From the IMG/VR virus record IMGVR_UViG_3300024272_000051, positions 40,405-104,404 of that record: a stretch of DNA of 64,000 nt. The stretch is one strand, 5' to 3'. The notes beneath the pieces are model-generated. The model was not told the DNA's origin, searched no databases, and was given only the letters and a program-made list of their open reading frames with translations. Positions 14,604 through 32,505 of the stretch are shown here, piece by piece (the stretch's first letter is position 1; every line of letters starts with the position of its first letter). The DNA is from a virus. Taxonomy: Duplodnaviria; Caudoviricetes. A program made the translations under genes and the position numbers.

Positions 14604-14650
14604 GAATATTCCTCCTTCCAAGCCAATCGATTTTTTAGAATGATTCCTAG

Positions 14651-14815: not shown

Positions 14816-15589
14816 TCAGCGAAATGTAACCGTGATTTGTGAAGGGTCATAGTCCTCCGGAACACTTCCACTAAACAACAGATTAATAAAAATGTACTTT
14901 CCACCAATTTCTGATATTGAAAAGCTGCCAGAGGTACCGCCGCCAAATCCAATCCTGCTCCAAGTTTGAGAATCTGCATCATAGCTTACAACAAAATAAC
15001 CATAGTTCGTTACAGCTAGTCCATGTCCCATGGTGTCAGATACACCTATATTCATATTAGTAGCATTATCGGGGATTTGTATGGGGTAATAGCCACTAAT
15101 ACTTAGGTTGTCTACATTCTTTGTAGAGGACGCAAATAAATATTTGTCATTTAGTGCAAAGCCAGCATAAACATCTACGGTAGTTATATGGTGTCCTACC
15201 CACAAATCAAAGTTCTCAACACGAACACGATTCACATTTATAGTAACGTCTTCTGTAATATTTTCAACTGTCACTAAATTGTCTGAATATGAAGATTGTG
15301 TAATATTATTTTCACCCATTGTTATATGTACATCAGACGAATTACATATAAAACCTACTGGCGGAGATAAAGTAGCGCTATAGTTATGTACTAAAGATAC
15401 ATTATTTAGATTACTATTTATATGTGTGCCCCCAGGACATTTTTCAATGTGATACCCGGCGATTAATGTATCTACCGCATCGGTCAAATTAATATTACTT
15501 ACGCCTGTTTTTTCATTTGCACTATCTAAGAGAGTGCGAAATTGGTTTTTTACTGATTGTGCTGTAATCACAATAATCACCTCACTCAC
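14816..15589 (-). CDS. Putative virion adsorption protein: N-terminal shared motif plus one Ig-like repeat
   Basis: SVKNQFRTLLDSANEKTG...LTDAVDTL; ITMGENNIT repeat; paralogous to 15586-16881. Confidence 0.6.
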   Translation of the reverse strand: MSEVIIVITAQSVKNQFRTLLDSANEKTGVSNINLTDAVDTLIAGYHIEKCPGGTHINSNLNNVSLVHNYSATLSPPVGFICNSSDVHITMGENNITQSSYSDNLVTVENITEDVTINVNRVRVENFDLWVGHHITTVDVYAGFALNDKYLFASSTKNVDNLSISGYYPIQIPDNATNMNIGVSDTMGHGLAVTNYGYFVVSYDADSQTWSRIGFGGGTSGSFSISEIGGKYIFINLLFSGSVPEDYDPSQITVTFR

Positions 15590-16881
15590 GAATAACGTAT
15601 CTTGGAGTTGGTGAGTTGACTAGCGGTAGATGTAGACCAATACGGGTCGCTAAACATATTAAATACGACATTAACACCGCCATCTTCTACAACTCCCCAA
15701 TCGCCCCATTTCTCTCTGCATATATCAATGGTTGTTGATAAATTGAGGTCATTTGTTGCTGTGCTTACAAACTCGTGGTTGGAAGAATATTTATTACCGG
15801 CAATAAATGCGGCTTCTACAGTGATCAACTCTGGACACATTGTATAAAGATGTATTTGCGATGCCCCAATTGGGATTGGTATCAAATAAACATTGCCATA
15901 TATGGTGTAAGCACTCGTTCTTGCTGTGCCACAACCCAATAAAGCACAATCATCATAAAGCTGACTGTTCGTACCACTAATACCGTTTGTAGTCGATGAC
16001 ACTTTAGTATTTGTAATTGCGCGCAAAGTTGATGCATACTCCACAGAAACTACAATATCTATATCTCCGCTTATACTTTCTATGAATATTTCAGCGGTCT
16101 TATAGTCTGCGGAAATAGCACAGCAATCTGATGTAATGTCTACACCACCCATGGTAACAACGATACTTCGATCATATAGAAGCCACCAGCTTGGGAGCGA
16201 TACGGTAACAGTGGTTGAAAAAGAACTGTTGCGATCTACGGTATCTGGCTGGTTGCTCAAAGTGACTCCGACAGGGGAGTATGTAACAGCATAGGAAGTA
16301 ATTTCGCCACACACGGCGGTAATCTCAATGTTCCCAGTAATGTTGTTGATTGTGATTGTCCCATCAGCATAAACATCCACTGTCACATCCTGCCCTCCCA
16401 TAGTAACAACAACAGATTGTAATTCATAACCATCGTCTGGAGTTAGCGTGGCCGAATATGATTGCTTTTCATATATGGTTGCAATATCGTTATTGGAAGA
16501 ACAATATGTCAGACAATTGTTAATAGAATATTGCTCCAAAGCTCTTGCATTTGCTACGATCTGCAGATCTCCAGTCAGGTCCTTGATAGATACTATGCCG
16601 TCTGCATAGGCCGTGCTTGTAATATCTACGCCATCCATAATAACAGCGACAGACCCTTCGTCTAATGTATAGCCCTCGTCAACAGACAGAGTCGCTTGAT
16701 ACGACCCTGTTAAAGAAACCAGTCCTGTATTTATAATATGTTTTCCGCCAACACAGTCACTTGCGCCAAAACCTTCAACAAGAGTGGCTATAGCATCTGA
16801 TATATTTGTATCGTTGGCGCCAGTTTCTGTATTGGAATTGAGCAACAATTCAGATAATTTTGTTTTAACGCTATTAATCAT
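15586..16881 (-). CDS. Putative virion adsorption protein: N-terminal shared motif plus three Ig-like repeats
   Basis: Three VTMGG.DIT-type repeats. Confidence 0.65.
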   Translation of the reverse strand: MINSVKTKLSELLLNSNTETGANDTNISDAIATLVEGFGASDCVGGKHIINTGLVSLTGSYQATLSVDEGYTLDEGSVAVIMDGVDITSTAYADGIVSIKDLTGDLQIVANARALEQYSINNCLTYCSSNNDIATIYEKQSYSATLTPDDGYELQSVVVTMGGQDVTVDVYADGTITINNITGNIEITAVCGEITSYAVTYSPVGVTLSNQPDTVDRNSSFSTTVTVSLPSWWLLYDRSIVVTMGGVDITSDCCAISADYKTAEIFIESISGDIDIVVSVEYASTLRAITNTKVSSTTNGISGTNSQLYDDCALLGCGTARTSAYTIYGNVYLIPIPIGASQIHLYTMCPELITVEAAFIAGNKYSSNHEFVSTATNDLNLSTTIDICREKWGDWGVVEDGGVNVVFNMFSDPYWSTSTASQLTNSKIRYS

Positions 16882-16896
16882 TGCTTTTACCTCATA

Positions 16897-17856
16897 CTAC
16901 AAAATTGGAGAATTATACTCAATGATAATTTCTATGTCTCCAGAGACTTCTGGGATATTTACAGACAAATTAGTCCCATCTATTGAAGACACAGTATTAG
17001 TTATATCCGTAGCCCCCATAAGAATTTGATACTTACAATCCGCATCAATCACATTCACTTCGTTAACATACGGATCGCCAGCAAAAACTGCTTTTAAAGC
17101 ATTGCTCATCGTAATACCGTCGCCCTGAAGGCTATTGTACGAAAGCGATACGGAATATGTTTTTGCAACAAGAGAGGCAACCTCTGCGACATACTCATTA
17201 AACATGGCATCTATCTCTGATGCCGTATAATAATTATCTGGGTCGGCGATAGTTGGAAGCGTTACTGATGTTGTAGTTCCATCTGTTTTTTTAAATCTCC
17301 AAGCTTTGTTACTATATGATACAGAGGATATTCCAACGCCATTCGATCCGGTATCTCCTTTTAGGTTTGCAGAGCTTGTTCCAGAAGCAGATGTAACAGT
17401 TAATGTAGTTCCATTCCAGGAATGAGTGCAAGAGGTGCCATCTGCACCGTTGCTGCCATTTTTGCCAGATGATCCGTTATACACATTAAAAGCAAACGAT
17501 GATCCGTCAGTTAGCGTAATAGTGATTGTGTTTACCCCGCTACTTACAAGACTTTCGGAAGTAAGTTCAATGCTCGAAATTCCGACACCATCATTGTAGT
17601 CTACGCCCTTGATAGGGGTATAGCCATCGTTTCCATTTTCGCCATTTGCACCATCTTTTCCATCAACACCATCTGTTCCAACAACCACTCCAAGATTAAT
17701 AGGTTGACCCTCAGAAAGTTCTAATATCAACTCATTGTCGTCGTTGATGTAGGCATTAGTGATGCTAACACCATCGTTGCCAGGATCTCCCTTATAGGAG
17801 TAAATTTCTGTGATTTTTCCGTCTTCGCCACGGACTCTCAAAATTGGATCTGCCAT
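16897..17856 (-). CDS. Collagen-like tail fibre/stalk protein with C-terminal Ig-like repeat
   Basis: Gly-X-Y runs (GTDGVDGKDGANGENGNDG), GYTPIKGVDY, GTSCTHSWNGT. Confidence 0.75.
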   Translation of the reverse strand: MADPILRVRGEDGKITEIYSYKGDPGNDGVSITNAYINDDNELILELSEGQPINLGVVVGTDGVDGKDGANGENGNDGYTPIKGVDYNDGVGISSIELTSESLVSSGVNTITITLTDGSSFAFNVYNGSSGKNGSNGADGTSCTHSWNGTTLTVTSASGTSSANLKGDTGSNGVGISSVSYSNKAWRFKKTDGTTTSVTLPTIADPDNYYTASEIDAMFNEYVAEVASLVAKTYSVSLSYNSLQGDGITMSNALKAVFAGDPYVNEVNVIDADCKYQILMGATDITNTVSSIDGTNLSVNIPEVSGDIEIIIEYNSPIL

Positions 17857-17867
17857 AGTATCACCCC

Positions 17868-20552
17868 CTAATCAATAACGCGAGCAAATAGATTTGCTCC
17901 ATCGTCAACACCACAACTAAATCGAATATAATGCATGTCGCTCCAAGATCCAGATACTGGAGCATTTGAACAAGTGCTGGAGTCCCAATATAAGTATGTA
18001 TCGTCGGTAGTACTATAAGCTGGGCCACCATATCCTTCTTTTAGCAAATTGGAATAATTAATCGCCTGTATTAAGGAGTGTGATGCATCATATACACATA
18101 CATAGGAAGCAGAGTTGTTCCAAGAACCACCAGTTACTTCAAGTTTTTGCCCATACTCGAATTCAATGAATCCGACAGCGGCAGAAGCTATTGAGGATGT
18201 GGTGACTTGACCACTGGAGTTCAATCTATATTCGTTTTTATATCCAGTACCATTGAAGATGTTGCCATTTTCATCTTCAGATGTTAAGACCACATTTGCT
18301 CCACTGCTTGTAGCAACGACTGTAATGATAATATTCCCGGTAACTTTATCAATAGATATGATACCGTCAGAATAGACAGTGTCTGATATATTGACTCCAC
18401 CCATAGTGACCACCACACTCTCAAGAACATACCCACTGGACGCAGTGATGTTAGCAGTGTACCTTTCGCCGTTGGAAATGGTAGTAGCACTGTTGTCGTT
18501 AGTTGCATATGTTAAGTTGTTAACAACCGACCACACATCTTCTACTTCATCGGCATATTTGATTTCCTCGTTTACAGTCAAAATACTGTTATCTGTAATA
18601 TTGGCGCAACAAACGCGAATAAATGCAGTGTTTTCTAAAGATACAGAGGCACCGCTAACTGTTGCACTAATAGAAGTATTAACTGTAAAGTCTGTGCAGT
18701 TTCCAGCATTATCTACCGTCGCATTCATTTGACCGAGATACCAAGCACTATTTGCCTGTATAAATGCTATATAATTCTTTTCAGAGTCATAGAAAACAAT
18801 ACGATGATTCCCGTCATTGGTAGAAAAAGACATGTCTTGCATACGGATAATATCTCCGTTTTTAACAGGAATAAATCCCGTGGTGCACACGGCAGCATTT
18901 GTACTTTCAACACCACCATTGATGTAGGTCTTTGCCTTATATCCTGTTCCGTTGTATACGTTGCCACTGGTGTCAGTAGAAATTGGGATTTGATTAGTGC
19001 AGGCAAGGGCGATTTCCGCACTTGCGGTAATAACTACATCTCCGATTACTGATCCAATGGTTATTATGCCGTCAGAATAAACAGAAGAGGTTATGTCTTC
19101 TCCGCCCATTGTTACAAAAACAGATGTAATAATACAATGTTCACTAGGTATTAGAGTTGCAGTAAAAGACTTACCTTCTTCGGCGCTCCCTGCCTCATTT
19201 GAAATCGTCAAATTCGACAAAGCGTTTGTGATACTATAATATACAGTGTCTCCATACCCAATTGTCCGATCCCTACCTGCTCCGTAGCAGAATGAATAGA
19301 TAATTTCTTCTGACGGATTAATAACATTAATTACAAAAGAAGTATCTTTGGCTGAGCCGACCGTCTTTAAATAATCAAGCTTTTCGCCATTAGAATCTTT
19401 TTCCTGAAAATCAATGTCTGTATAACTGCCAACTGTTGAGTAATAATTTTCTCTATTATACTGACCGTTTGGAACACAGATACGCCAAGCATCATACGAG
19501 ACAGAGCTACTGTTCTCATAGACACTAAGCTTGTCTGTCTTGAAATTATGGACATGCCCATGAAACTGTGCTATGAACTTTGCCATATTCGCGGAAGCGA
19601 AATCAATAATGTGACTTATCTCATCCTCTGAAGAAATTGTAATTGAACTGCCTTCAACATAAGCCTTAAACAGTTCGCTGAGTGGCATCGTATTACCATA
19701 ATCAGCGGGGTAGTGAGATAAAACTATAAAGCCCCATTCGGACGCATCGGTTTTACTATTCAAATCTAATAAGGCATTCGCAAGCCAAATGCGCTGAGAG
19801 CCAAGCGTTCCTTTATCGGTTTGGTTAACAACCAAGGATTCGCTGGTATTAAGCAGAAATACTCGTAGCTTTTTATCAGAAAAGTCACGATAACAGTAGC
19901 CTCCATTTTCTACCCCACCAACTACGGTGTCTTCACTTTCAGAAAGAGCAGTGTATTGACCATACAGATAATCGCCAGTCTCGGTATATGTACCACTGTT
20001 TCCATCACTAATCATCTGGTTATGATAGTAAATACCGGTATCATGATTGCCGATAGCATGAAAGCAGGGAATGCCCTCGTGAGATTCCTTTAGTAGTGAA
20101 AATGTATCAGATGCTTGAGATTGTAATAACTCGGAGGTTGTCTTTGCACTACCCCAAGTAGAGTCTCCTAAATGTGCCATGAAATCAAAATCTAAAATAT
20201 AAGAAAGGATCTTTGCTGCCATGGCACTATGTAGATTGCTTGTATTGGTTTGAACACCATCGGCATCTGTATATGTATCGCTGTCAGCTTGTGCACCATA
20301 TTGGTGGGTATCACTCATTGTAAGGAACACGATGCTTTCATCTCTTAAAACAGACTTCACTTCATTGGCAACACGCAAAGCTTCGGCCTTGACATAGTCT
20401 GGAATATTCGCATGAGCGATTTCCTCTGTTAGACTCAAAGCAGAAACCGCTGTTATCATATCGTCTAAGCTCAACTTAGCTGTTGTTCCTGTCTTTTCTC
20501 GGATGGCATTGGCAAGGTTTGTCATTTTTTGATTTACTTCATATACAGCCAT
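17868..20552 (-). CDS. Calcineurin-like metallophosphoesterase fused to Ig-like repeats (putatively virion-associated)
   Basis: SDTH, LGDS, GNHD, LSH, HGHVH motifs; two VTMGG repeats; two NGTGYK domains. Confidence 0.8.
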   Translation of the reverse strand: MAVYEVNQKMTNLANAIREKTGTTAKLSLDDMITAVSALSLTEEIAHANIPDYVKAEALRVANEVKSVLRDESIVFLTMSDTHQYGAQADSDTYTDADGVQTNTSNLHSAMAAKILSYILDFDFMAHLGDSTWGSAKTTSELLQSQASDTFSLLKESHEGIPCFHAIGNHDTGIYYHNQMISDGNSGTYTETGDYLYGQYTALSESEDTVVGGVENGGYCYRDFSDKKLRVFLLNTSESLVVNQTDKGTLGSQRIWLANALLDLNSKTDASEWGFIVLSHYPADYGNTMPLSELFKAYVEGSSITISSEDEISHIIDFASANMAKFIAQFHGHVHNFKTDKLSVYENSSSVSYDAWRICVPNGQYNRENYYSTVGSYTDIDFQEKDSNGEKLDYLKTVGSAKDTSFVINVINPSEEIIYSFCYGAGRDRTIGYGDTVYYSITNALSNLTISNEAGSAEEGKSFTATLIPSEHCIITSVFVTMGGEDITSSVYSDGIITIGSVIGDVVITASAEIALACTNQIPISTDTSGNVYNGTGYKAKTYINGGVESTNAAVCTTGFIPVKNGDIIRMQDMSFSTNDGNHRIVFYDSEKNYIAFIQANSAWYLGQMNATVDNAGNCTDFTVNTSISATVSGASVSLENTAFIRVCCANITDNSILTVNEEIKYADEVEDVWSVVNNLTYATNDNSATTISNGERYTANITASSGYVLESVVVTMGGVNISDTVYSDGIISIDKVTGNIIITVVATSSGANVVLTSEDENGNIFNGTGYKNEYRLNSSGQVTTSSIASAAVGFIEFEYGQKLEVTGGSWNNSASYVCVYDASHSLIQAINYSNLLKEGYGGPAYSTTDDTYLYWDSSTCSNAPVSGSWSDMHYIRFSCGVDDGANLFARVID

Positions 20553-21376
20553 TACCATTCACCACCTAAAATAAGAGTATCCACATAGTTTTTGATTTCG
20601 TCTTTATCTGATTCGGTCCAATAATCAATTCCCTTTTGTGGAGTATATCCATCCTCTCCATCTTGACCTTTCAAATCAACAGATGTTTCTCCGGAAGCAG
20701 ATTTGATAGTCAAAACAGTTCCGTTCCAAGAGTGTGTGCAAGAAGTACCAGGCACACCATCTTGGCCGTCCTCTCCATTTTTAATGACAACTGTATTAGA
20801 TCCATTTTTATCTGTGATAGTTATGGTCGAGCCATCATCTGTTTTTTCTACAGTAATAGTGGGTGAAAAACCATCATCACCATCAGTTCCGCTTTCTCCA
20901 GAGGGGATCGTAATTATTTGATCTGAAACCTCGTTCATACCGTCCAAATTTGCTCTAAAAGAGATTTTGATTGTGTTTGCGTCAACTTGCGAGACTGTGG
21001 GTGTATAGTATCCACCATCTCCAACAGTTGGCGCAACGGTATTGCCACCGCTCGGCAAAATTTGAATCCTACAATCATCCGGCATGTCACCATCACCGAT
21101 ATAGATGTCCGCAATACCATCTGTACCATTTCTAACAGTAAAGTCAACAACCTTGCCATTCGCCAGTGTAAAAGTGATCTTATTTTCACCACCGCTGGCA
21201 TCGCTCTCTTCTGTTGTGATATCAACAACGCCAGCCTCTGCAATCTCTTTTAATATTCGATCAATCTTTACAATATTAGAATCGTCGGCAGAACTATTCA
21301 TTTTTGCTCTCCAATCCTTAAAGAGCGTGGAACTGTCGTCTTCGACATACAGCCCATAATTAATTGTTTCAGCCAT
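20552..21376 (-). CDS. Collagen-like tail fibre/stalk protein
   Basis: Gly-X-Y runs, GFSPTITV, GTSCTHSWNGT, GYTPQKGIDYWTESDK. Confidence 0.75.
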   Translation of the reverse strand: MAETINYGLYVEDDSSTLFKDWRAKMNSSADDSNIVKIDRILKEIAEAGVVDITTEESDASGGENKITFTLANGKVVDFTVRNGTDGIADIYIGDGDMPDDCRIQILPSGGNTVAPTVGDGGYYTPTVSQVDANTIKISFRANLDGMNEVSDQIITIPSGESGTDGDDGFSPTITVEKTDDGSTITITDKNGSNTVVIKNGEDGQDGVPGTSCTHSWNGTVLTIKSASGETSVDLKGQDGEDGYTPQKGIDYWTESDKDEIKNYVDTLILGGEW

Positions 21377-21424
21377 TTTTACCTCCTTTCATACATGCTT
21401 GTATAAAATGACAGTTTGGCCTAA

Positions 21425-21586
21425 TTAGTATTCAACGCCGTAAAGATCAAAAAGATCTTTTACGGCGTTGGTTTTTAATATTTTCTTTTGTTGCCCTTGG
21501 TTTAAGGCATCATATACTGTTTGTAAGGCCAATTTTGTATTCGTTTTTGCCTCTTGTACAGCCAAAGTCAATTCTTCTTTTGTCAT
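21425..21586 (-). CDS. 53-aa protein not in the ORF track (possible fibre chaperone)
   Basis: MTKEELTLAVQEAKTNTKLALQTVYDALNQGQQKKILKTNAVKDLFDLYGVEY; ATG overlaps the previous stop; GGGGTGA RBS. Confidence 0.7.
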   Translation of the reverse strand: MTKEELTLAVQEAKTNTKLALQTVYDALNQGQQKKILKTNAVKDLFDLYGVEY

Positions 21587-21828
21587 AGTTTCACCCCAAA
21601 TTCTGCAAGGGCCATTTCATAATCAGACGTAGTGGCCAATTCAGTATCACAAAAAGCACTATCTGGTGTTAATATCGGCACATCGGTCTCATTATATACC
21701 CTATTACTCCCGATAGGATCGATTGCCTCATCATACAAAACATCGTCACGTTCAATCATATAACCACTGTCTGAGTATTTTTGTAAAAACTCAACATCGT
21801 CAATGACTATTGTTTTTTGTACAATCAT
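21583..21828 (-). CDS. Small tail-fibre-associated protein
   Basis: YSDSGYMIERDDVLYDEAIDP; GGAGG RBS; follows the LRR protein. Confidence 0.65.
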   Translation of the reverse strand: MIVQKTIVIDDVEFLQKYSDSGYMIERDDVLYDEAIDPIGSNRVYNETDVPILTPDSAFCDTELATTSDYEMALAEFGVKL

Positions 21829-21831
21829 ACG

Positions 21832-24800
21832 TTATACACCTCCGCAAATATCCTGATAATCTTCGATAGCTCTAAACCTTTTTGATAAAGTGCTCCAGTT
21901 AGTTGCAGACTTGTATTCGGACAGTAAGGCTTTTGGAACATATATATATCCGGTAGTTGTCAGAGAGCTGCTTGCAAAAGCTGTTGTAGACGCTAATGCG
22001 CATACAGTGTCGCTCCTGAGAATTAACGCATCTAACGGTGTATAATTAAACGAGTTACCCTCTATTTTTGTTGCGACATGAAAATCTGCCTTTGTTAAAA
22101 ATTCACACTTCCAGAATGAGCTTGTTGTTACGGTCTGTAGTTTTGTGCATACGACGCTTGTAAGTCCAGATTGAGAAAATGTGCTACTACCAAGAAATTT
22201 CTTGATATTTGAAAAGTCAAAATTTGTTAAAGAAGAGCATTTTGAGAAAACCGCTCCGGGCAACTCTTCTATAGCAGGTGAAAGTTTAACACTTTGTAGA
22301 TTGGTACACCCGTAAAACGCGCTTCCCTCCAATTCGACAACTCCTGGTAAATAGACCTCTTTTAGATCAACGCACCCATTGAATGCGCTATATCCAACTT
22401 TACTTACATTTTCAGCATGTATACTGGACAAAGACTTGCAATCCATGAATGCACACTCTCCAATATGTGTTGCGCTTGGAAGATCGGCGACTTTTAACGA
22501 TGAGCATCGCGCAAAACAACGATCAGCCACCACGTTTAAAAGAGGGAAGGGGGTAGACTCAATGTTTGACCATTCAAATGCACCCTCATACCCATAATCA
22601 CCTTCGCCAACATCGATAAACTCAACAAGGGGGGAGTTTATGCTGTATAGATTTTTACATCCAAAAAATGCCGCTCCACCTATTGTGCGCACGCGAGGAA
22701 AATCTACATACAATAGACTGGTATTCCTATAAAATGCATATGGAGCAATTTCGCCCAAACTGTTACTACTCATATTGAAACTTGATCGAGAAATAAGATC
22801 GTCATAAACAGATATTTCCCAATCAAGCATCGGTAAATTACCAGTATACACAAACCCGAATATTTCTGCAAAGTCCAATCCGCACATATGTTCATGTTCC
22901 ACATCAATTGCAACGTCTTCATAGTGGTCATCGGCCTGAATGTTAAACGGCTTTCTGCTAACACCCCTCAAATATGCGACATTATTATAGCTTCCGACAG
23001 AGGTGCTTCTACATGTTACATATATCGCGCTACCTGCATAAAAGTCATTTTCGTCAATTATTCCATCCTCGTTTGTATCTATGTTGCGCTCAATATAATC
23101 AGCTGCACCAGCAGTGAAACAATTGTGTACATAGAAACTTTCTATTTGCGTTTCACCAAAAAGACCAGCAGAATGCCAGCGGCTTGTTCCGTCTAGCGAA
23201 TGACTTCCATAGTTTCCAGTATTATAGCAATTGTTTACTATTGTCGTGCGAGTTGATGTATCAATATCGCCTACAGCAGTAGCAAACAAGTCTACAAGGT
23301 ATTCGGATTTATTTCGATCATACAGTCTTATCCAGGCATTCTCAGCTCTACCAGATCTATATGTTATATTACAGTAAGTGTCGTTATCGGTGCGCATCGA
23401 TACATCTATAAAATCATTATTTGATATTATATCAATGTCATCAATAGAAGAGCCTGCATTTTCTAAGATGCCTTTGGCTTCAAATTCAATAGTCTTTCCG
23501 CTGATAACCTCTATATCGTTGGCTTGAATTAATTTTATGCTGTTTAACATAATCGTTGGTCTTGAGCCATAACTGGGGTCAGAATGTTCTATGCTTATAG
23601 TGGAAATACCTTTCTTTAAATTAATTCCACGTATATAGTCTTCTTTCCTTTGGGATGATGTCCCCCTGAATATATAATCTTTATATAAAAGCTCGCCATC
23701 AACATAGATATCAGCGCATCCGCCACCGGCGTTTCCGCCAGTAATAATGTTGGAGTTACCGGTTGAACTTTCGGCGTACAAATCTATGACAAGCTGATAA
23801 CGACCATCTTCTGGAACAACAACTTTTAAACACAAATCTGCACGATTTGCATTAACGGAGTTGTTCGTATAAGTCATATATGGGTAATACCCAACTCGCC
23901 ATTGATACTCTGGATTGTTGTTAAAGAACAGCCTTTTACGAAATTCCTTTCTCTTAAAACCAGAAACAGTTTCGTCTATCCACCAGTTGTGATTGAGCTT
24001 CAAATATTCGTTTAAACTATCATAAGCAGCTATTTGCTCGGTAGTCATGGCCGTATTCCCATCTTTACATCCAACATACTTTACATTTTCATCAGATGTT
24101 GGTGCAAGATCATTCCACCAATCTTGGTTAGACATTCCAGAAACTGAGGCAGAAAAATCTATTTCCACAATATCTCCAGTGTCTTTGTATCTGTGTGTAC
24201 AGCCGCCAAGTCGACCGATTAAACAACCGGTAATGTCATAGCCATCAATCCTTCCTTTGTTACAACTGCATGTAACTTTGGATGGCACATCAGAATCTTC
24301 CATATAACCGATTAAACCGCCAACATACATTCCGCTGATATACATATCTGCCTCATTAGAGCATTCATGTACAACAACAGACTTAGCATAGCCAATAATG
24401 CCACCGATATTGGTGTAGAAAAGATGCTGGTATGCCCCTGGATTTGTGTTCAGTGGACTGTTAATGCTAACCTTGTTACAGCATCTAACAAATGTAGAGT
24501 TTTTTGCAACAGCACAAATGCCTCCAATCTTACTATTTTCACAATGGCGACCAGTAATAGTGGCTGAGCCTGATACGGTTATATTTCTTATAGTTGCACC
24601 ATTAACAGTTCCGAACAAACCAACACGGAAATCTCGGTATTTATCCTCTACTTTGTCGAAAACATTGTTAAAGGACATTTCGATTCCAGATATTGTGTGT
24701 CCTTGACCGTCGAATGTACCGCAGTATGGAGTATCTGAGGTGCCAATAGCATGGCTTGACATATCTTCAATCCATTTGGTAGCACTCATATCAATATCAT

Positions 24801-25008
24801 CTGTCAGGACAGCACAAAGGTTTGATCTTCCGGCATTTACCTCGTTAGAAAAGTGCAATAGGTCTTCTGCGGACGATATAGAAATTGGCTTCATATCTTT
24901 TAGGGCTTGTATTGCTTCTGTTAGATTTTCATGCTTAAGCCCGGTAGCATTTTCGATGCGGTTCTTTACGGCTTCAATTCTCTGCACGCTTTCAAATTTA
25001 ATACTCAT
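21832..25008 (-). CDS. Multidomain adhesin-like protein: GLUG-type repeats, inserted CBM-like module, EF-hand-like motif, BspA-type LRRs
   Basis: LTDDIDM/GTFDGQGHTISG/VGLFG/GGIIG; IG..AF..C..L repeats; YVPKALLSEYKSATNW. Confidence 0.8.
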   Translation of the reverse strand: MSIKFESVQRIEAVKNRIENATGLKHENLTEAIQALKDMKPISISSAEDLLHFSNEVNAGRSNLCAVLTDDIDMSATKWIEDMSSHAIGTSDTPYCGTFDGQGHTISGIEMSFNNVFDKVEDKYRDFRVGLFGTVNGATIRNITVSGSATITGRHCENSKIGGICAVAKNSTFVRCCNKVSINSPLNTNPGAYQHLFYTNIGGIIGYAKSVVVHECSNEADMYISGMYVGGLIGYMEDSDVPSKVTCSCNKGRIDGYDITGCLIGRLGGCTHRYKDTGDIVEIDFSASVSGMSNQDWWNDLAPTSDENVKYVGCKDGNTAMTTEQIAAYDSLNEYLKLNHNWWIDETVSGFKRKEFRKRLFFNNNPEYQWRVGYYPYMTYTNNSVNANRADLCLKVVVPEDGRYQLVIDLYAESSTGNSNIITGGNAGGGCADIYVDGELLYKDYIFRGTSSQRKEDYIRGINLKKGISTISIEHSDPSYGSRPTIMLNSIKLIQANDIEVISGKTIEFEAKGILENAGSSIDDIDIISNNDFIDVSMRTDNDTYCNITYRSGRAENAWIRLYDRNKSEYLVDLFATAVGDIDTSTRTTIVNNCYNTGNYGSHSLDGTSRWHSAGLFGETQIESFYVHNCFTAGAADYIERNIDTNEDGIIDENDFYAGSAIYVTCRSTSVGSYNNVAYLRGVSRKPFNIQADDHYEDVAIDVEHEHMCGLDFAEIFGFVYTGNLPMLDWEISVYDDLISRSSFNMSSNSLGEIAPYAFYRNTSLLYVDFPRVRTIGGAAFFGCKNLYSINSPLVEFIDVGEGDYGYEGAFEWSNIESTPFPLLNVVADRCFARCSSLKVADLPSATHIGECAFMDCKSLSSIHAENVSKVGYSAFNGCVDLKEVYLPGVVELEGSAFYGCTNLQSVKLSPAIEELPGAVFSKCSSLTNFDFSNIKKFLGSSTFSQSGLTSVVCTKLQTVTTSSFWKCEFLTKADFHVATKIEGNSFNYTPLDALILRSDTVCALASTTAFASSSLTTTGYIYVPKALLSEYKSATNWSTLSKRFRAIEDYQDICGGV

Positions 25009-25892
25009 TGTAAAACCCCCGTTCCGATAGAGGCAATTAATTTTTCATCCAATAAGCCGGCAGCTTGTTCGGCAATGTCGCGCTTGTCTGTTTCTGTTAA
25101 AACATAATCGTTGCCAACTGCATCTACACCAAGAGACTTCCACGTCTTTCCATTGTCATACGACACCATCCATTGTTCAGATGACTCGTCAATGTTAATA
25201 ACGGGGGTGTTACCATCTTTCCCGTCTTTGCCATTGGCTCCAACAATTACGCCAAGATTGTTCTCAACCCCGTTGGAGTAAGTGAGGACTAACTCATTAT
25301 TTTCGTTAATCACTGCGGAAACAACACTTACGCCATCTTTACCGTCTTCTGGCATATTAACCAAAATACCATTCCACTTATCAACATCGCCGCTTAATAT
25401 TTTTGCAAGCTCGTCCATATTGGCGTGGTTATGCGAGTCGTTTTTTAGTTCCTCGATGTTGTCTTCTGCAAAAGTCACGCGATCCTGCAGGTCTGGAAAG
25501 GCCGCGTCATCATAGTCCGCAAAGTCCTTTGAGTCTTGGATGGTTAAAGTACACTCTCCGCTCTTAACTACAATTTGCTCAGAAGAATGTGGAATGAAGT
25601 GAAGCCAAGTACAGATGTCACCGGCAACATTTGTAATTTTACGATCAACAGGAACGGTGTATTGGCAATAGTTGTCATTATACATAGCTCCTGTATTTTC
25701 TAATTTGATAACATTGGGAATGCCGTCGCTGCGTATATAATTTAAATATACACGAGATGTTGTGACATCGATATCGTCGATCATTTTGGGTATCAAGTAA
25801 ATTATTTTCTTGTTTAGGTTTTCTCCACGATAAATTGGTTCTTTTGCGGTTATAACCAAAGACTCGTCTTTTTCAAGTTTAATATAAAACAA
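25005..25892 (-). CDS. BppU-like baseplate-anchored collagen-like stalk protein
   Basis: N-terminal YRGENL...IYLIP domain, HNHANMDEL, Gly-X-Y run, DYVLTETDK. Confidence 0.65.
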   Translation of the reverse strand: MFYIKLEKDESLVITAKEPIYRGENLNKKIIYLIPKMIDDIDVTTSRVYLNYIRSDGIPNVIKLENTGAMYNDNYCQYTVPVDRKITNVAGDICTWLHFIPHSSEQIVVKSGECTLTIQDSKDFADYDDAAFPDLQDRVTFAEDNIEELKNDSHNHANMDELAKILSGDVDKWNGILVNMPEDGKDGVSVVSAVINENNELVLTYSNGVENNLGVIVGANGKDGKDGNTPVINIDESSEQWMVSYDNGKTWKSLGVDAVGNDYVLTETDKRDIAEQAAGLLDEKLIASIGTGVLQ

Positions 25893-25968
25893 CGGTTTCA
25901 CCTCCGTTTTTTTGTTTTCAAGTTGGGTTGTAGAGTATACTTTTGCACATACACCCTACAACCGGTAT

Positions 25969-26695: not shown

Positions 26696-27094
26696 TTATG
26701 GGTTACTCACACTCAGCTTTAGCGCCCCAGGCTTAAGTGTCATAATTGTGTCCGGTTCAACAGTTCGAGGGGTGGTGAGAGCACCATACATCAAAAGGTT
26801 GCCGCCAGTTTGCGCATCATAAATAACAAAGTGTGTTACAGTACCCCAATTGGTTTCGCTTGTTGGAAAATCAATTGAGGACGTGTTAGAAATGAGGCCG
26901 TCAGTCGGAGCGCCAAGCTTTCCTGAAAGAGCCTGTCTAACATAGTCGCTGCCTGCAGGTTCTTTTGCGCCAGTACCTGCAATAGTAGGTGTTGCCGTAC
27001 TAAGTCCAACATAATATGCAGTTGGAAGAGCAGGACTGGTCTTTGTCTTAAATACATTTCCAGAAACACAGTTAAGGAAATAGGTTGTATTCAT
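26696..27094 (-). CDS. Small tail/baseplate structural protein
   Basis: YVGLST..P, SDYVRQ, NWGTVTHFVIYDAQTGGNLL. Confidence 0.65.
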   Translation of the reverse strand: MNTTYFLNCVSGNVFKTKTSPALPTAYYVGLSTATPTIAGTGAKEPAGSDYVRQALSGKLGAPTDGLISNTSSIDFPTSETNWGTVTHFVIYDAQTGGNLLMYGALTTPRTVEPDTIMTLKPGALKLSVSNP

Positions 27095-27152
27095 AGTTCC
27101 ATCCTCCTTTGTGGACATAAATAAGAAAGCCGAGAGTGTTTACTCTCGACTA

Positions 27153-27743: not shown

Positions 27744-30700
27744 TTATCCTCCAAGACTGTTATTTAAACTTCCAAAAATGCGGTATTGTTGTTCGTCAAA
27801 ATTAAACAGTATTCCGCAGGTTTGATTTTCGTTTCCGATCCAGAGCCAGCTGTCACTACTTTCATATTTTTTCATGATATAAGCTCGATTACTGTTTCCC
27901 AATTTTAATGCAACGTATTCGCGTTGGCGAGAACCCTCATAACTATATTCGCTACCATAATCCATTACCAGTTTTTCGTATCCATCTTCCCAAAATGACA
28001 TGTACTGGCCACTGTATTCTGCATATGTCAGAGGATCTCCATCATCGTCCAGAGTCGCGACGAATTTTGGACTGTAAATACAGTCTCCATTTATAAAGGT
28101 TCCACCCTCATATTCTCCGTTTGCAAGTGCGTCTACGCTCTCAACAGCTGCGTCAGCGGCGTCTTCAGCGCCGTCCGCCTTATCCCATGCTTCGTCAGCT
28201 AAATCATATGCAGCACTTCCGCTTTCGTCAACATTATCCCAATCGATAGCAATACTGCCTCTCATATAGACGTTACCATATTTGTCGACTTGGAAATTTG
28301 GTGAAGAAGATGTTCCGCCGATCTTTATTTGACCACTCTCAATGCTTGCTCCATTAATTTTTGTCGTACTGTTGCCCTCTAAATTGCTAATGGTGACATA
28401 TCCGCTCAAATCAATGTTCGTTGCACTCATATTAATTTTACTTGTGCCATCATTTATAGAAGCAACAATGGATGCAGCAGTAACTTTGCCGTCTGATCCA
28501 GTCACGCCTTGCACGATAGCTTTAATTTCATTCGATGTTTGGGTGAGAGTAGACGATGTGACATAATTACCTTCTATGGTTTCGACTCTGCTCTCAATTC
28601 CACTTGCTGTTTGGGTGAGCTCGGAAGATGTAATATAGTCATCTTCCACGGCTTTTAATCTTGTGCTTAATTCTTGCGCACTTGCGCTAATTGCCGCTGT
28701 GTACTCTTCTTTTATTTTGTTTGCAGAGTTCGTAATTGCTTGGGTATATTGAGCAGTAAGCCCCTTTTCAGAAGAGTCGATTGCCGCCGTATATTCCTCG
28801 GTTATTCCGTTGGACAACTCGACAGTATCGAGATATTCAAGTAAGAACTGGCCACTTGAGTTGGTCATTGGCTTGCCTGAACTTGTCTGAAATTGTGCGC
28901 CTTTTACTGTTCCTGAGAAAGTTCCAGAGCTTGCTTGTATTTCTCCTGTAAATTTGCCGCTCGTTGCGTAAACAGTGCCTCTAAAATATGCATTACCAGA
29001 ATCTATATCTAGGTAGAAATTGGAATTCTTTGGCATACCATCTGCATCTTTGGTTATAGTCCCGTTTGAATAAAAAGACGGCACAACGTTTGTACCATTC
29101 AGATTATATAGGTTTTTGTTTCCTGCAACAATACCGTACTTCGGGTCAATGATTATTTCTCCGCCATTGGTTTTTGTGGACTGTAAAACAAATGTAGAGT
29201 CTCTTAACCATGCACCAGAAGAATCAACCCTAAACTGCATAACACCATCGTCGTTCATATTTTCAACAATAAGGTTATTGCCAATAAGCAGTTTGCCGCC
29301 GATAACATCGGCATTTACGCCGAAGTATTCGCCGACTTCATCAGACACAAATTTACCGATAGCTAGTTTTGCGCTGTTCCACCCATTATCACTCATGGCA
29401 ATCATGCCATTTGTAAGGCGTAATTCACAATCCTTTAGTTTGTCAGCCATACTATTGCCAGCCAGTTCACGAATCGCTTCTTCGTCAACACCAATGCTGA
29501 TACCAGAACCATCGATACGAACTTGCTGGTTAGATGCTCCAAGAATTGCATTCTTTGCAGCATCTAAAGAACCGTTCATAAACTCTGTGATAGCTGATAC
29601 CTCGCCGAGAGATTGGTTGTAAAGATATTTGCTTGCATCAAAGCTACGACCAGACGAATAACCCTTTTCGAGCATGTCTTTCAATGAGTTAACATTATCA
29701 TGACGCTTAAAACGATTGGAAAATACAAGAGAGAAACTGTCCTGCTTCTCAAATTCGAACTCCATTTCAATAAGCAGGGGAGTGATCGTTTGTTCATCGC
29801 TGAGCTTTAGGTAAATACCTCGGCCAAGCTCTAACTTATTACGGAACGGCTCAAACTCTTTTGAGAATAAGAAGTTGCCGGAGCTAACACTAAACTCATA
29901 GGTGTATACAGATAAATCATTTAGTACACCTTGCGCATATTCCAACAATTCAGACTGTACGGAATATTTTTGAAACTCACTTGCATTTGTAGTGATGTAC
30001 ATTGTGGTGGTATGGCTAATTGTGACAGACCAAGAATTGGCACGAGGGTCGGAGGTTGTGCCTTTACCGGCAAATGTGATCAATCCGCTGGATACCCTTG
30101 CGTCGCCGAGCTGAATATTAGAAGCATATATACTTAACACAAATTCATTGGAACCAGTCTTTCTATCAAGTACTCCCTTAACGACATCACAAGATAATTC
30201 AACCTTGTCGCAATTATAAATTCTAAAAGTGCACCCAGAGATTGTAAACATTTCTCTGTCTACGTCATCGGGCAAGTCAACCAATTCAATTTTGCCTGCC
30301 TCAACATCGTCTTCTGCCCCCTTTTTGTAAAAGTAAAGCATAGTCCCCTTAGCAGACGGTTCGATATACGCCGTCTGACCGGACGTAACCGTGTTAAGAT
30401 CAGTTGCAACAAAGGTGCTCTCAGTAACATCTTGTTCTACAAAATACTCTCTAAGAATATTTAGCTCATCTTCGGAAAAATAAGTTTCGATATTCAAAGA
30501 CTCTGCGATAGAATTTGTTTTTACAGCATAAGAATTTACAGTACCCTCAGCCTCCGCTATCTCGACCTCTTTTGCCTCAACAAGCGCTGTTTGCGCAGAA
30601 ATCTTGTCGTTAACGGTAGCGAGATTTGTTTGCTGAGTTTCTTTTCCTTTTTCTGTAGTCTCCATTGCAATGGCTTGAATAATAACACTCTGTTGATTAG

Positions 30701-31658
30701 TAAGGTTAGTTAACTCTCCCTTTAAATCTGTTAACTCTGCTTTTAGTGTTAAAAGGCGAGAAGTAGCAGATGCTCTAAGAGCGCAGTAGCCAGAATAGGC
30801 AGACCTTTGACTGTCAACTGCTTTTTGCCATTTGCTCCATTTTGCCGCAATACTTTCTGGAATATCTCCATTAGAAATGAAGTGATCTATGTTATAAATC
30901 CAGTTTGAACCTGTTGGATTGACCGATCTGATATCAAGTTCATCCGCACCATATGGACGCAATGCAGTTACCAGCTCATCGCTAAGTTCTTCTACTTCGA
31001 TTTCTTCCAACAGATTATCGAAATCAAGATAAATTGGGAGGGCGGTTCGTTCCTCGTCTGCGTCATAGACATTGATGGTTTTTTCATATGGATCGAACAC
31101 AAACACGCACCGATACTTCTCAGGAGCTGTATTATAAATAAATGACAACAGATAATCGTCGTACTGATCGAATGTTCGATATCTATTCCAGAGGGTGGCG
31201 GAGACGTAGCCGATTTTCCAACCCTTTGCGATCTCCAAAATACGAGACAAAACTGTGTCTGCCCCAGACATCGGCGAATAGAAATTAAAGGTTCCTTCTT
31301 CTAAGAAAAAGCGTTTGTCCTCAAGCCGTTTTTCGATAGAATATCCCTTGACGGATTTGATGTCAGAAATTCCATCGGAAGACTTAGAAGGTTTCATTGT
31401 GACATAGACACCATAATTCTTAGTATAGATAAGTTTGCGCCCTTCAACTTTGTGATACAAAGGATTGGGCTTGCCTTTAACCACCGAGGGGATATCAAAG
31501 GAAATTTCACTTGGCTCGGATAATTTAATGTTAAATTTCAGATTGTTGACCCCAGACAGAAGGCCAATGGAACGCTCATTTAGAGTTTGAAGCATCAATT
31601 CTGGGACTTCTGGTCTGCCATACGCATCAAACTCCAATTTAGAATAATCAAGATACAT
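27744..31658 (-). CDS. Tail-tip/baseplate hub (Tal-like) protein
   Basis: 1304 aa after Dit; SEISFDIP, VTALRPYG, coiled coil, GNAYFRGTVYATSGKFTG. Confidence 0.75.
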   Translation of the reverse strand: MYLDYSKLEFDAYGRPEVPELMLQTLNERSIGLLSGVNNLKFNIKLSEPSEISFDIPSVVKGKPNPLYHKVEGRKLIYTKNYGVYVTMKPSKSSDGISDIKSVKGYSIEKRLEDKRFFLEEGTFNFYSPMSGADTVLSRILEIAKGWKIGYVSATLWNRYRTFDQYDDYLLSFIYNTAPEKYRCVFVFDPYEKTINVYDADEERTALPIYLDFDNLLEEIEVEELSDELVTALRPYGADELDIRSVNPTGSNWIYNIDHFISNGDIPESIAAKWSKWQKAVDSQRSAYSGYCALRASATSRLLTLKAELTDLKGELTNLTNQQSVIIQAIAMETTEKGKETQQTNLATVNDKISAQTALVEAKEVEIAEAEGTVNSYAVKTNSIAESLNIETYFSEDELNILREYFVEQDVTESTFVATDLNTVTSGQTAYIEPSAKGTMLYFYKKGAEDDVEAGKIELVDLPDDVDREMFTISGCTFRIYNCDKVELSCDVVKGVLDRKTGSNEFVLSIYASNIQLGDARVSSGLITFAGKGTTSDPRANSWSVTISHTTTMYITTNASEFQKYSVQSELLEYAQGVLNDLSVYTYEFSVSSGNFLFSKEFEPFRNKLELGRGIYLKLSDEQTITPLLIEMEFEFEKQDSFSLVFSNRFKRHDNVNSLKDMLEKGYSSGRSFDASKYLYNQSLGEVSAITEFMNGSLDAAKNAILGASNQQVRIDGSGISIGVDEEAIRELAGNSMADKLKDCELRLTNGMIAMSDNGWNSAKLAIGKFVSDEVGEYFGVNADVIGGKLLIGNNLIVENMNDDGVMQFRVDSSGAWLRDSTFVLQSTKTNGGEIIIDPKYGIVAGNKNLYNLNGTNVVPSFYSNGTITKDADGMPKNSNFYLDIDSGNAYFRGTVYATSGKFTGEIQASSGTFSGTVKGAQFQTSSGKPMTNSSGQFLLEYLDTVELSNGITEEYTAAIDSSEKGLTAQYTQAITNSANKIKEEYTAAISASAQELSTRLKAVEDDYITSSELTQTASGIESRVETIEGNYVTSSTLTQTSNEIKAIVQGVTGSDGKVTAASIVASINDGTSKINMSATNIDLSGYVTISNLEGNSTTKINGASIESGQIKIGGTSSSPNFQVDKYGNVYMRGSIAIDWDNVDESGSAAYDLADEAWDKADGAEDAADAAVESVDALANGEYEGGTFINGDCIYSPKFVATLDDDGDPLTYAEYSGQYMSFWEDGYEKLVMDYGSEYSYEGSRQREYVALKLGNSNRAYIMKKYESSDSWLWIGNENQTCGILFNFDEQQYRIFGSLNNSLGG

Positions 31659-31669
31659 TCCACACCTCC

Positions 31670-32449
31670 TTATCCTGCAACATTATGTAGGAAGCGACCT
31701 GAAATTGTAACAGAGCTCGCTCCAGATATTGTAAGCCGATTGTCACCCGGTACAAGCCGGAACAAATTCATGTTAAATCCATCATACAGATTGTATGCAT
31801 CGTTTTCGTCTCGGATAATGCCGTTGAGATTATCTACATAAATTGTTGTTGCTGCAGATGGTAGTCCCGTCAGTTCAAATACACGACCTCCGTCGCTCAT
31901 ATTTACAATTCTCAAAGTTGTTGATCCGACTGGTGAAACCAGAGTTAAGTCTGGTCTTAAATACTCTCTTACACTGCTTTCATTGCGGAATACCACGGAA
32001 GTTCCCGAAACTGTCTTACTAAATGGATGCCCATAAGCATATGAACAGTCACAAACAACCTCGGCCTCAAATGCAACGGGTAGCCACCCGTGAGAAAGCG
32101 GTGTCAGGGAAGTGATCAGACATTTGAACTGTACATGTTCCATATCGGGCTGATCGATGGAAAGCCATTGATAATCATTGTAACCCGTAAGCCACATAGA
32201 TATTTCTTCCAATGTATATCGGTCCATTGCTTCCTCTGCACCAAACACAAGTTTAAATTTTAGAGGGTCTTTATGATAGTTCACACCGTAATGGATTGGC
32301 TGAATTCTGTTGTTAACTCGGGTTTCGGATACAGTTGCTTTATTTCCAAAGCTAACGTCATCCTGACCTCGTCCGTTAAAATCATAAAGCTTCAAGCCGT
32401 ACATAACGGATGATTCCCCCGCAAAAGTGAATTCATAACTATTGAACAC
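31670..32449 (-). CDS. Distal tail protein (Dit-like)
   Basis: FTFAGESS, LVPGDNRLTISG; directly follows the TMP; AGGAGGTG RBS. Confidence 0.75.
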   Translation of the reverse strand: MFNSYEFTFAGESSVMYGLKLYDFNGRGQDDVSFGNKATVSETRVNNRIQPIHYGVNYHKDPLKFKLVFGAEEAMDRYTLEEISMWLTGYNDYQWLSIDQPDMEHVQFKCLITSLTPLSHGWLPVAFEAEVVCDCSYAYGHPFSKTVSGTSVVFRNESSVREYLRPDLTLVSPVGSTTLRIVNMSDGGRVFELTGLPSAATTIYVDNLNGIIRDENDAYNLYDGFNMNLFRLVPGDNRLTISGASSVTISGRFLHNVAG

Positions 32450-32505
32450 TGTGCTGAACACCTCCTTTTTAAAGTGATAGAGAGGGGTGTAAACCCCTCT
32501 CAAAA

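What the first reader, a model, noticed from the sequence alone, without database searches (positions are those of the whole stretch)
14816..25892. Candidate plug-and-socket virion display system: collagen stalks paired with cargo proteins that share an N-terminal docking motif
Seen: the same gene pattern occurs three times. A collagen-like stalk gene carries a related helical motif at or near its C-terminus: 25005-25892 GNDYVLTETDKRDIAEQAA; 20552-21376 GIDYWTESDKDEIKNYVD; 16897-17856 PDNYYTASEIDAMFNEYV. Each stalk is followed, with overlapping or near-adjacent stop/start codons, by cargo genes that begin with a similar ~35-aa motif: SVQRIEAVKNRIENATG-LKHENLTEAIQAL; VNQKMTNLANAIREKTG-TTAKLSLDDMITAV; SVKTKLSELLLNSNTETG-ANDTNISDAIATL; SVKNQFRTLLDSANEKTG-VSNINLTDAVDTL. 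The cargos otherwise differ: an LRR/GLUG adhesin, a metallophosphoesterase and Ig-repeat proteins. Known: branched receptor-binding systems with anchor peptides exist in some enterobacterial phages. Inference: stalk tips act as sockets and the helix-TG-helix motif as a plug, so interchangeable enzymes or adhesins can be mounted on the virion. I do not recognise this as a described system in SPbeta-like phages.
Basis: partly seen in the sequence, partly recalled or inferred. Interest (0 to 1): 0.8.

Follow-up and report, generated by a model that had tools for sequence, protein, structure and literature searches.

The report
Two-part connector joining phage fibre proteins
A roughly 104-kb gut phage splits its tail fibres into shaft genes and head genes. 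The shaft's last helix and the head's first ~40 residues look like a matched, reusable connector that recurs at the same gene boundary in hundreds of uncultured Clostridia phages, but physical binding has not been shown.

Summary
After Dit and Tal, three shaft genes (A1 25005-25901, B1 20552-21376, C1 16897-17856) are followed by four genes (A2, B2, C2, C3) that open with a helix-TG-helix module.

A profile of that module finds 490 protein clusters among 1.84 billion, mostly at residues 2-43. No Pfam family covers it, and I found no paper describing it.

Outside this phage, 28 non-redundant genes start with the module. In 20 of them (23 counting a 'TALG' variant by eye) the gene just upstream ends in a helix capped by L-[ILV]-G-G, against 2 of 849 control ORFs.

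Four further results link the two halves:
- Natural fusions carry cap and module contiguously, once in tandem.
- One 65-aa protein is only module plus cap, and sits between a capped gene and a module-led gene.
- Each subtype in the window recurs as the same pair in other phages.
- In ten related loci the junction is 79-85% identical while its flanks are about 30%.

The A1 N-domain has the BppU/FibU ring fold that anchors fibres on baseplates.

Best reading: a split helical joint that mounts exchangeable heads (BspA-type LRR, metallophosphoesterase, beta-repeat proteins) on fibre shafts. This is a new sequence family doing what T2/T6 gp37-gp38 and TP901-1 BppU-BppL do.

Caveats:
- Binding is untested.
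- The three shaft motifs are not significantly alike.
- The window has four plugs for three sockets.

This scan noted similar stalk-plus-head pairs earlier on other DNA.

The parts
25005..25901 (-). A1: shaft/anchor protein. It has a BppU/FibU-like N-terminal Ig domain, a helical linker, short collagen-like and beta segments, and a C-terminal socket.
   Evidence: ORF. The AF2 model has pLDDT 75-93 over residues 1-120. Foldseek top hits are 80alpha baseplate 6v8i, NF5 9m8o, TP901-1 4v96 and 3uh8. The N-domain family carries many alternative C-terminal tails.
25008..25127 (-). Socket A: the last ~40 residues of A1, a helix ending in ...IGTGVLQ.
   Evidence: Conserved at 59-62% identity in relatives, each followed by an A-type plug gene (L048, L049).
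21832..25008 (-). A2: head protein with an N-terminal plug and C-terminal BspA-type LRRs.
   Evidence: LRR_5 at 112 bits. Its start overlaps the A1 stop.
24880..24996 (-). Plug A (A2 residues ~5-43).
   Evidence: Profile hit. The independent HMM gives E 1e-3.
21583..21828 (-). Small 81-aa gene after A2. A ~53-aa ORF follows it. Possible assembly factors.
   Evidence: Conserved after head genes in L048 and L005. No family hit.
20552..21376 (-). B1: shaft with short collagen-like runs, a CFSR-like beta domain and a C-terminal socket B (...LILGGEW).
   Evidence: The same ending precedes B-type plugs in L005, L048 and L046.
20555..20635 (-). Socket B (last ~27 residues of B1).
17868..20558 (-). 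B2: head with a B-type plug, an intact metallophosphoesterase, two ~75-aa beta repeats and two C-terminal domains.
   Evidence: Metallophos at 23.1 bits against a 21.5 cut-off. phrog_7158 matches residues 10-345. The catalytic motifs are visible in the translation.
20418..20546 (-). Plug B ('AIREKTG' subtype).
16897..17856 (-). C1: collagen-like/CFSR shaft whose socket is internal and is followed by one beta-repeat domain.
   Evidence: In relatives L005 and L048 the homologue stops right after the socket.
17170..17238 (-). Socket C (type a, ...EID..F..Y...V..L...).
   Evidence: The only significant hit of the foreign socket HMM in the window, E 8e-7.
15586..16881 (-). C2: head with a plug, 3-4 beta repeats and a C-terminal domain.
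16759..16881 (-). Plug C2.
   Evidence: E 6e-15 with the independent HMM.
14816..15589 (-). C3: head with a plug, one beta repeat and a C-terminal domain. No socket-ended gene lies directly upstream.
15449..15565 (-). Plug C3.
   Evidence: E 6e-19 with the independent HMM.
27744..32503 (-). Context: Tal (27744-31658) and Dit (31670-32503). They place the cluster in the baseplate/fibre module.
   Evidence: phrog_6211 and phrog_33.

Best explanation
The region encodes multi-subunit tail fibres assembled from separately translated shaft and head proteins.

The two halves of the connector:
- Each shaft ends in an amphipathic helix closed by a Gly-rich cap (L-[ILV]-G-G plus 0-8 residues). This is the 'socket'.
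- Each head begins with a ~40-residue helix-TG-helix module, usually followed by GYGxGG. This is the 'plug'.

Inferred mechanism: the socket helix and the two plug helices pack into one helical joint, probably around the fibre's three-fold axis. The joint is in effect a small helical domain split between two polypeptides.

How the parts fit together:
- A1 is fixed to the baseplate by a BppU/FibU-type ring domain and carries the LRR head A2.
- B1 carries the phosphoesterase head B2.
- The C1 helix, or a shared socket, carries C2 and C3.
- Overlapping stop and start codons couple the synthesis of the partners.
- The joint is conserved while the shafts and heads on either side vary, so recombination can exchange heads (adhesins or wall-polymer-cleaving enzymes) without disturbing assembly.

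Shown here: the motifs, their adjacency, the fusions, the co-variation and the A1 fold. Inferred: binding, stoichiometry, position on the virion and the roles of the heads.
For: 1. Family size and position. There are 490 clusters at E<=1e-3. In most of the top 150 the module is at residues 2-43. In about 25 it is internal.

2. Fusions.
- In internal cases such as P0006, P0033, P0008 and the P0016/21/30 group, a socket-like helix plus GG directly precedes the plug.
- P0006 has two tandem socket-plug units.

3. Adjacency.
- Of 28 non-redundant plug-led genes from four collections, 20 have an upstream ORF ending in the capped helix, against 2 of 849 background ORFs (Fisher 3e-32).
- Three more upstream ORFs end in 'TALG', read by eye from the listing.
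- The search pattern touched only the plug.

4. Connector-only protein. In L050 the order is socket-ended gene, then a 65-aa plug+socket protein, then a plug-led gene, all with overlapping stops and starts.

5. Cognate subtypes.
- A-type pairs recur in L048 and L049.
- B-type pairs recur in L005, L048 and L046, with a related ending (...NG.Y) in L011 and L044.
- C-type pairs recur in L005, L048, L008, L009 and L018.
- In L005 the A1 homologue has a different tail and its downstream gene a different N-terminus.

6. Conservation island. In ten type-b loci the socket is 79% and the plug 85% identical, against 34-36% for the shaft and 28% for the head.

7. Upstream partners hit tail-fibre, tailspike or virion PHROGs.

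8. The A1 N-domain matches the 80alpha FibL/FibU and TP901-1 BppU ring domains. That fold is described as a general device for attaching structures to tails (PMC7048315).

9. Heads are mostly BspA LRR proteins: 27 of 60.
Against: - No interaction or structure test was possible. Only single chains can be folded here, and the fused protein P0006 folded poorly (pLDDT 43, though helices fall where expected).
- The cap regular expression was written after seeing the data.
- 10 of the 28 loci belong to one clade.
- Exceptions exist: L022 has no helix cap, and in L010 the cap lies 10 residues from the end.
- In the window there are four plugs for three sockets. C1's socket is internal, and C2 has no socket although C3 follows it.
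- A1, B1 and C1 sockets are not significantly similar to each other.
- How B1 and C1 reach the virion is unknown.
Confidence: 0.66

Rival explanations
1. The plug attaches the heads to some other virion part, for example the BppU-like ring, Tal or Dit. The shaft's capped helix is only a trimerisation or termination element. Adjacency would then reflect the usual gene order of fibre modules, not contact between the two ends.
For: The window has more plugs than sockets, and C3 follows a gene without a socket. A group of proteins carries the plug after a ~110-aa N-domain with no socket-like helix in front (P0012, P0013, P0020). No binding test was done.
Against: Socket and plug are contiguous in fusions and tandem units. 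The 65-aa plug+socket protein makes little sense without end-to-end joining. Socket and plug subtypes co-vary.
Confidence: 0.15
2. The conserved junction is mainly a DNA-level recombination linker. It would be a homology patch that lets fibre modules be shuffled, with no protein-protein role.
For: There is a sharp island of conservation flanked by divergent sequence on both sides. This is the pattern expected at recombination junctions.
Against: Conservation holds at the protein level across subtypes whose DNA cannot be alike: profile hits span 490 clusters at 50% identity. The helix/Gly-cap and helix-TG-helix patterns persist across subtypes. The two readings are also not exclusive.
Confidence: 0.1
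3. The downstream proteins are not virion parts. They would be accessory proteins released at lysis or displayed by the lysogen (moron-type adhesins or enzymes).
For: BspA LRR proteins and phosphoesterases are common cell-surface or secreted proteins. No signal of virion incorporation was measured.
Against: The genes sit between Tal and the lysis genes in one co-directional operon, with overlapping stop and start codons. No signal peptides are evident at the N-termini, which are occupied by the plug. Upstream partners are fibre or spike proteins.
Confidence: 0.05

Closest known systems
T2/T6-type long tail fibre tip gp37 with the separately encoded adhesin gp38 (PMC3157838)
   Same: The head is encoded just after the fibre gene. 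Its conserved N-terminal attachment domain binds the fibre tip, and its C-terminal part is variable. Fibre C-terminal subtypes are each tied to one adhesin N-terminal subtype ('lock and key').
   Different: There is no sequence relation. Here the joint is helical and also occurs fused, in tandem and as a stand-alone adaptor. Heads are large LRR or enzyme proteins. The hosts are Gram-positive Clostridia. No gp37-type C-terminal processing is evident.
Lactococcal TP901-1/Tuc2009 BppU holding BppL (and BppA), and S. aureus 80alpha FibU/FibL (PMC4742702, PMC7048315)
   Same: The gene order is Dit, Tal, holder, receptor-binding protein. The A1 N-domain has the BppU/FibU Ig-like ring fold. FibU also continues as a collagen-like fibre. 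The holder's C-terminus carries separately encoded binding proteins.
   Different: The BppU C-terminal domain that grips three BppL trimers is absent, and no BppU_N Pfam hit is found. B1 and C1 lack the ring domain. The connector here is a short terminal helix plus an N-terminal hairpin that is reused on many shaft types.
Anchor/branch receptor-binding systems of Klebsiella and coliphages (for example PMC13579863; G7C and CBA120 from my own knowledge)
   Same: Several different binding or enzymatic proteins are mounted on one virion through short conserved N-terminal peptides, which allows modular exchange.
   Different: Those systems use a T4gp10-like branching domain on the first tailspike. 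No such domain was detected here. Here the join is end to end at a fibre tip.
T4 long tail fibre gp34-gp35-gp36-gp37 (text of PMC3157838, and my own knowledge)
   Same: The fibre is built from consecutive polypeptides joined N-terminus to C-terminus.
   Different: The T4 joints are unrelated in sequence, each is unique, and they are not known as a reusable cassette.

Membership tests
BppU/FibU-type baseplate holder | N-terminal Ig-like ring-forming domain | tested here: met
   The A1 model (residues 1-120, pLDDT 75-93) matches 6v8i chains, 9m8o, 4v96 and 3uh8 by Foldseek (E 2e-5 to 1e-2). By sequence, Pfam gives no BppU_N hit.
BppU/FibU-type baseplate holder | C-terminal domain that binds trimers of the receptor-binding protein (TP901-1 tripod) | tested here: not met
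   A1's C-terminal half is helical linker, beta and short collagen-like segments plus the socket. Foldseek matches cover only the N-domain.
BppU/FibU-type baseplate holder | Gene placed after Dit and Tal | tested here: met
   The order is Dit, Tal, three small genes, then A1.
gp37-gp38 type fibre tip plus adhesin | Adhesin N-terminal subtypes tied one-to-one to fibre C-terminal subtypes | tested here: met
   A-, B- and C-type pairs recur as pairs in L005, L046, L048, L049 and L008-L018. This is an analogy only.
gp37-gp38 type fibre tip plus adhesin | Sequence homology to gp38 or the gp37 tip | tested here: not met
   No Pfam, PHROG or PDB-sequence hit of the plug or sockets to such proteins.
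Anchor/branch RBP systems | T4gp10-like branching domain on the primary spike | tested here: not met
   No such Pfam or PHROG hit in any of the seven proteins.
Collagen-like tail fibre (PF01391, CFSR PF19079) | Gly-X-Y repeat region reaching the family cut-off | tested here: inconclusive
   Runs are only 3-7 triplets long. Collagen scores E 0.05 in C1, and CFSR scores 17.6-19.5 bits against a cut-off of 27. phrog_1806 'collagen like minor tail' scores E 3e-4 in C1.
BspA-type LRR protein (PF13306) | LRR_5 repeats above the gathering score | tested here: met
   A2 scores 111.8 bits against 27.7.
Calcineurin-like metallophosphoesterase (PF00149) | Domain above cut-off with metal-binding motifs | tested here: met
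   B2 scores 23.1 bits against 21.5. The D-x-H, GD, GNHD and GH-x-H motifs are visible in the translation.

The most novel reading that the evidence does not exclude
The socket and plug are two halves of one small helical domain completed in trans, chain by chain. This would be a chainable 'Lego' connector.

If true:
- stand-alone plug+socket adaptors could extend fibres;
- one trimeric shaft could carry up to three different monomeric heads, so the window's four heads (LRR adhesin, phosphoesterase, two beta-repeat proteins) could be displayed combinatorially on three shafts;
- the same connector would be usable on any shaft type across Clostridia phages.
Probability: 0.2. Interest if true: 0.75.

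Novelty: new variant of a known kind. Interest (0 to 1): 0.58.

Why it matters
Receptor-binding proteins of gut Clostridia phages are almost entirely unannotated.

- **Annotation.** A sequence signature that marks the boundary 'shaft ends here, exchangeable head starts here' would let head genes be found in metagenomes. Here they are mostly BspA-type LRR proteins, plus enzymes such as a phosphoesterase.
- **Biology.** It would explain how these phages shuffle specificity modules.
- **Structure.** It would give structural biologists a compact, testable joint.
- **Tools.** If the joint proves to be a self-assembling split helical domain, it could serve as a tool for attaching proteins to fibres in laboratory phage-host pairs.

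Tried and rejected
Searches that found nothing useful:
- The search for related loci with the motif alignments or with B2 found nothing usable: the alignments were too degenerate, or tblastn confirmation failed.
- The word-indexed protein search with the motif returned only the phage's own proteins and one relative.
- tblastn of B1, B2, P0083, P0106 and P0142 against GenBank phages matched only LRR, beta-repeat or CFSR parts and never the plug. No cultured or annotated phage with the module was found.
- PDB sequence searches with A1, B1 and the plug profile gave only chance hits.
- The ESM Atlas gave only unnamed viral clusters.
- Five literature searches found no description of this module.

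Ideas tested and dropped:
- phrog_7158 suggested a fused stalk+head, but its first 156 positions do not match B1.
It has a different shared N-terminus.
- The AF2 fold of the fused protein P0006 without an alignment was too poor to use.

Rejected explanations:
- Chance similarity.
- Frameshift fusion of shaft and head. The junctions differ in overlap and frame and show no shared slippery site.

Not run:
It was redone from loci.
- Two context look-ups failed for technical reasons.


Full report
**What is in the window.**
The window is the 3' 64 kb of a 104-kb IMG/VR phage record estimated 88% complete. On the minus strand lies one late operon:
- a 2144-aa tape measure;
- Dit (31670-32503);
- a 1304-aa Tal (27744-31658);
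- three small genes;
- the seven genes of the finding;
- a CHAP endolysin (13800-14621).

I call the three shafts A1 (25005-25901), B1 (20552-21376) and C1 (16897-17856). The four heads are A2 (21832-25008), B2 (17868-20558), C2 (15586-16881) and C3 (14816-15589).

The A1/A2, B1/B2 and C2/C3 stop and start codons overlap. C1/C2 are 15 nt apart and have a ribosome-binding site.

**What the heads are.**
- A2 has BspA-type LRRs (112 bits).
- B2 has an intact calcineurin-like phosphoesterase.
- B2 and C2 share a ~75-aa beta repeat (E 2e-15), with a weak copy at the end of C1.
- GLUG is below threshold in A2.
- The collagen-like runs are short: 3-7 Gly-X-Y triplets flanking CFSR-like beta domains.

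**Is the head motif real?**
- Pairwise, only C2/C3 are clearly alike. C3 links weakly to A2 and B2.
- A six-sequence profile was searched against 1.84 billion representative proteins. It found 490 clusters at E<=1e-3.
- In most of the 150 best hits the match lies at residues 2-43.
- An HMM built only from 99 foreign members picks out C3, C2 and, weakly, A2, and nothing else among the window's 1088 frames.
- B2 belongs to a second subtype ('AIREKTG'). Profile-profile comparison relates it to the first with probability 75% and E 2.5e-5.
- The module has no Pfam, NCBI-style or PDB counterpart, and the ESM Atlas shows only unnamed viral clusters.
- Of 60 family members scanned, 27 carry BspA LRRs. 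Others carry DUF285, Big_3 or lectin domains.

**Is the shaft motif real?**
The three shaft motifs are not significantly similar to one another.

What recurs is position and form: an amphipathic helix at the very C-terminus, closed by a Gly-rich cap. A socket HMM made from five foreign loci finds only C1's copy (17170-17238, E 8e-7). A1 and B1 carry other subtypes.

**Do the two ends go together?**
I collected contexts in three ways. None of them used the socket.
- Exact look-ups of profile hits.
- One DNA pattern for the plug, run on IMG/VR, GTDB genomes and JGI metagenomes.
- Relatives of the phage.

Results:
- Of 28 non-redundant plug-led genes outside this phage, 20 have an upstream ORF ending in the capped helix, against 2 of 849 other ORFs.
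- Three more upstream ORFs end in 'TALG', read by eye from that call's listing.
- One of the two control matches looks like a genuine socket.
- The regular expression was written after seeing the data, and ten loci form one clade, so the P value is descriptive. The effect is nonetheless very large and spans some nine shaft families.
- Upstream proteins match tail-fibre, tailspike or virion-structural PHROGs. One is a collagen plus pectate-lyase-like spike. A collagen stalk is therefore not a defining part.

**Four further lines tie the ends to each other.**
1. Fusions. In P0006, P0033, P0008 and a dozen proteins of the P0016 group, a socket-like helix plus GG runs straight into the plug. P0006 has two tandem socket-plug units.
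2. A connector-only protein. In L050 a 65-aa protein consists of a plug and a socket. It lies between a socket-ended gene and a plug-led gene, with overlapping stop and start codons at both junctions.
3. Cognate subtypes. A-type pairs recur in L048 and L049. B-type pairs recur in L005, L048 and L046, with a related form in L011 and L044. C-type pairs recur in L005, L048, L008, L009 and L018. In L005 the A1 homologue has a different tail and its neighbour a different N-terminus.
4. A conservation island. In ten type-b loci the socket (79%) and the plug (85%) are conserved between shafts (34-36%) and heads (28%).

**Anchoring.**
- With a 27-sequence alignment, the N-terminal 120 residues of A1 fold confidently.
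- They match the ring-forming Ig-like domains of 80alpha FibL/FibU, phage NF5 and TP901-1 BppU.
- That fold is described as a general device for attaching structures to phage tails. FibU also continues as a collagen-like fibre (PMC7048315).
- The A1 N-domain family carries at least five kinds of C-terminal tail. This fits a constant anchor with exchangeable connectors.
- How B1 and C1 attach is unknown.

**Mechanism proposed.**
The socket helix and the plug hairpin form one helical joint that is split between two polypeptides. The joint is covalently continuous in fused homologues and can be chained through small adaptors. Translational coupling supplies the partners together.

The heads are probably receptor-binding adhesins. 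In the case of B2 the head may be an enzyme acting on phosphodiester-linked wall polymers. That last point is inference only.

**Open problems.**
- The window has four plugs and three sockets.
- C1's socket is followed in frame by a beta domain, whereas its homologues in L005 and L048 stop right after the cap.
- C2 has no socket although C3 follows it.
- Either heads share sockets, or C2 and C3 pack around C1's internal helix.

**Comparison with what is known.**
- The logic matches T2/T6 gp37-gp38. [quoted passage not shown]
- It also matches BppU holding BppL in TP901-1 and Tuc2009 (PMC4742702).
- It differs in sequence, in being a short helical joint reused on many shaft types, and in occurring fused, in tandem and as a stand-alone adaptor.
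- I found no paper or annotated phage with this module.
- Earlier notes of this scan report similar stalk-plus-head pairs on other DNA. I treated them as leads only. One suggested relative, phiC2 p31/p32, does not carry this plug.

**Hosts.**
Genome hits are Clostridia/Eubacteriales MAGs, one titled as from roe-deer rectum. The other contexts come from uncultured metagenome assemblies.

**Verdict.**
- It is a new variant of a known kind.

Noticed in passing
window 16897-17856 (C1), compared with L048:15933-16619 and L005:12728-13294: In two related phages the C1 homologue stops right after the socket cap and a plug-led gene overlaps it. In this phage the socket runs on in frame into a ~90-aa beta-repeat domain, so this C1 is a shaft-plus-head fusion that bypasses the plug.
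   Followed up: partly
window 21583-21828 and about 21425-21586: An 81-aa gene and a ~53-aa ORF follow the head gene A2. The same pair follows head genes in L048 (81 and 53 aa) and L005 (70 and 55 aa, plus a 58-aa paralogue). No family hit was found. They may be fibre assembly factors.
   Followed up: partly
window 17868-20558 (B2): The phosphoesterase domain keeps all canonical metal-binding motifs. phrog_7158 covers plug plus enzyme but has about 156 further N-terminal positions that match nothing here, so other phages have a longer fused form.
   Followed up: partly
proteins P0155-P0178 (relatives of A1): The BppU-like N-domain of A1 is joined in other phages to at least five unrelated C-terminal tails. 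These include acidic Trp-containing endings and repeated '...VIEF/VIRF' endings, which may be further connector types.
   Followed up: no
L044:184-786 and neighbours: A B-type plug protein with two tandem plugs lies just before Prp protease and scaffold (DUF4355) genes. The cassette is therefore not always in the tail module.
   Followed up: no
L028:4626-7322: An 899-aa collagen plus pectate-lyase-like tailspike protein ends in a socket and is followed by a plug-led gene. An enzymatic spike can therefore itself serve as the shaft.
   Followed up: partly
window 26696-27118: The 140-aa gene between Tal and A1 matches phrog_240 ('head protein'), and its L048 homologue carries PF23140 (Gp80). This is an odd annotation for a gene in the baseplate block.
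   Followed up: no
plug-bearing proteins C2, C3 and many family members: Right after the plug and its GYGxGG linker, many members share a short Cys-x-G-G/K-H-I motif. It is present in C2, C3 and the L048 homologue. Its role is unknown.
   Followed up: no
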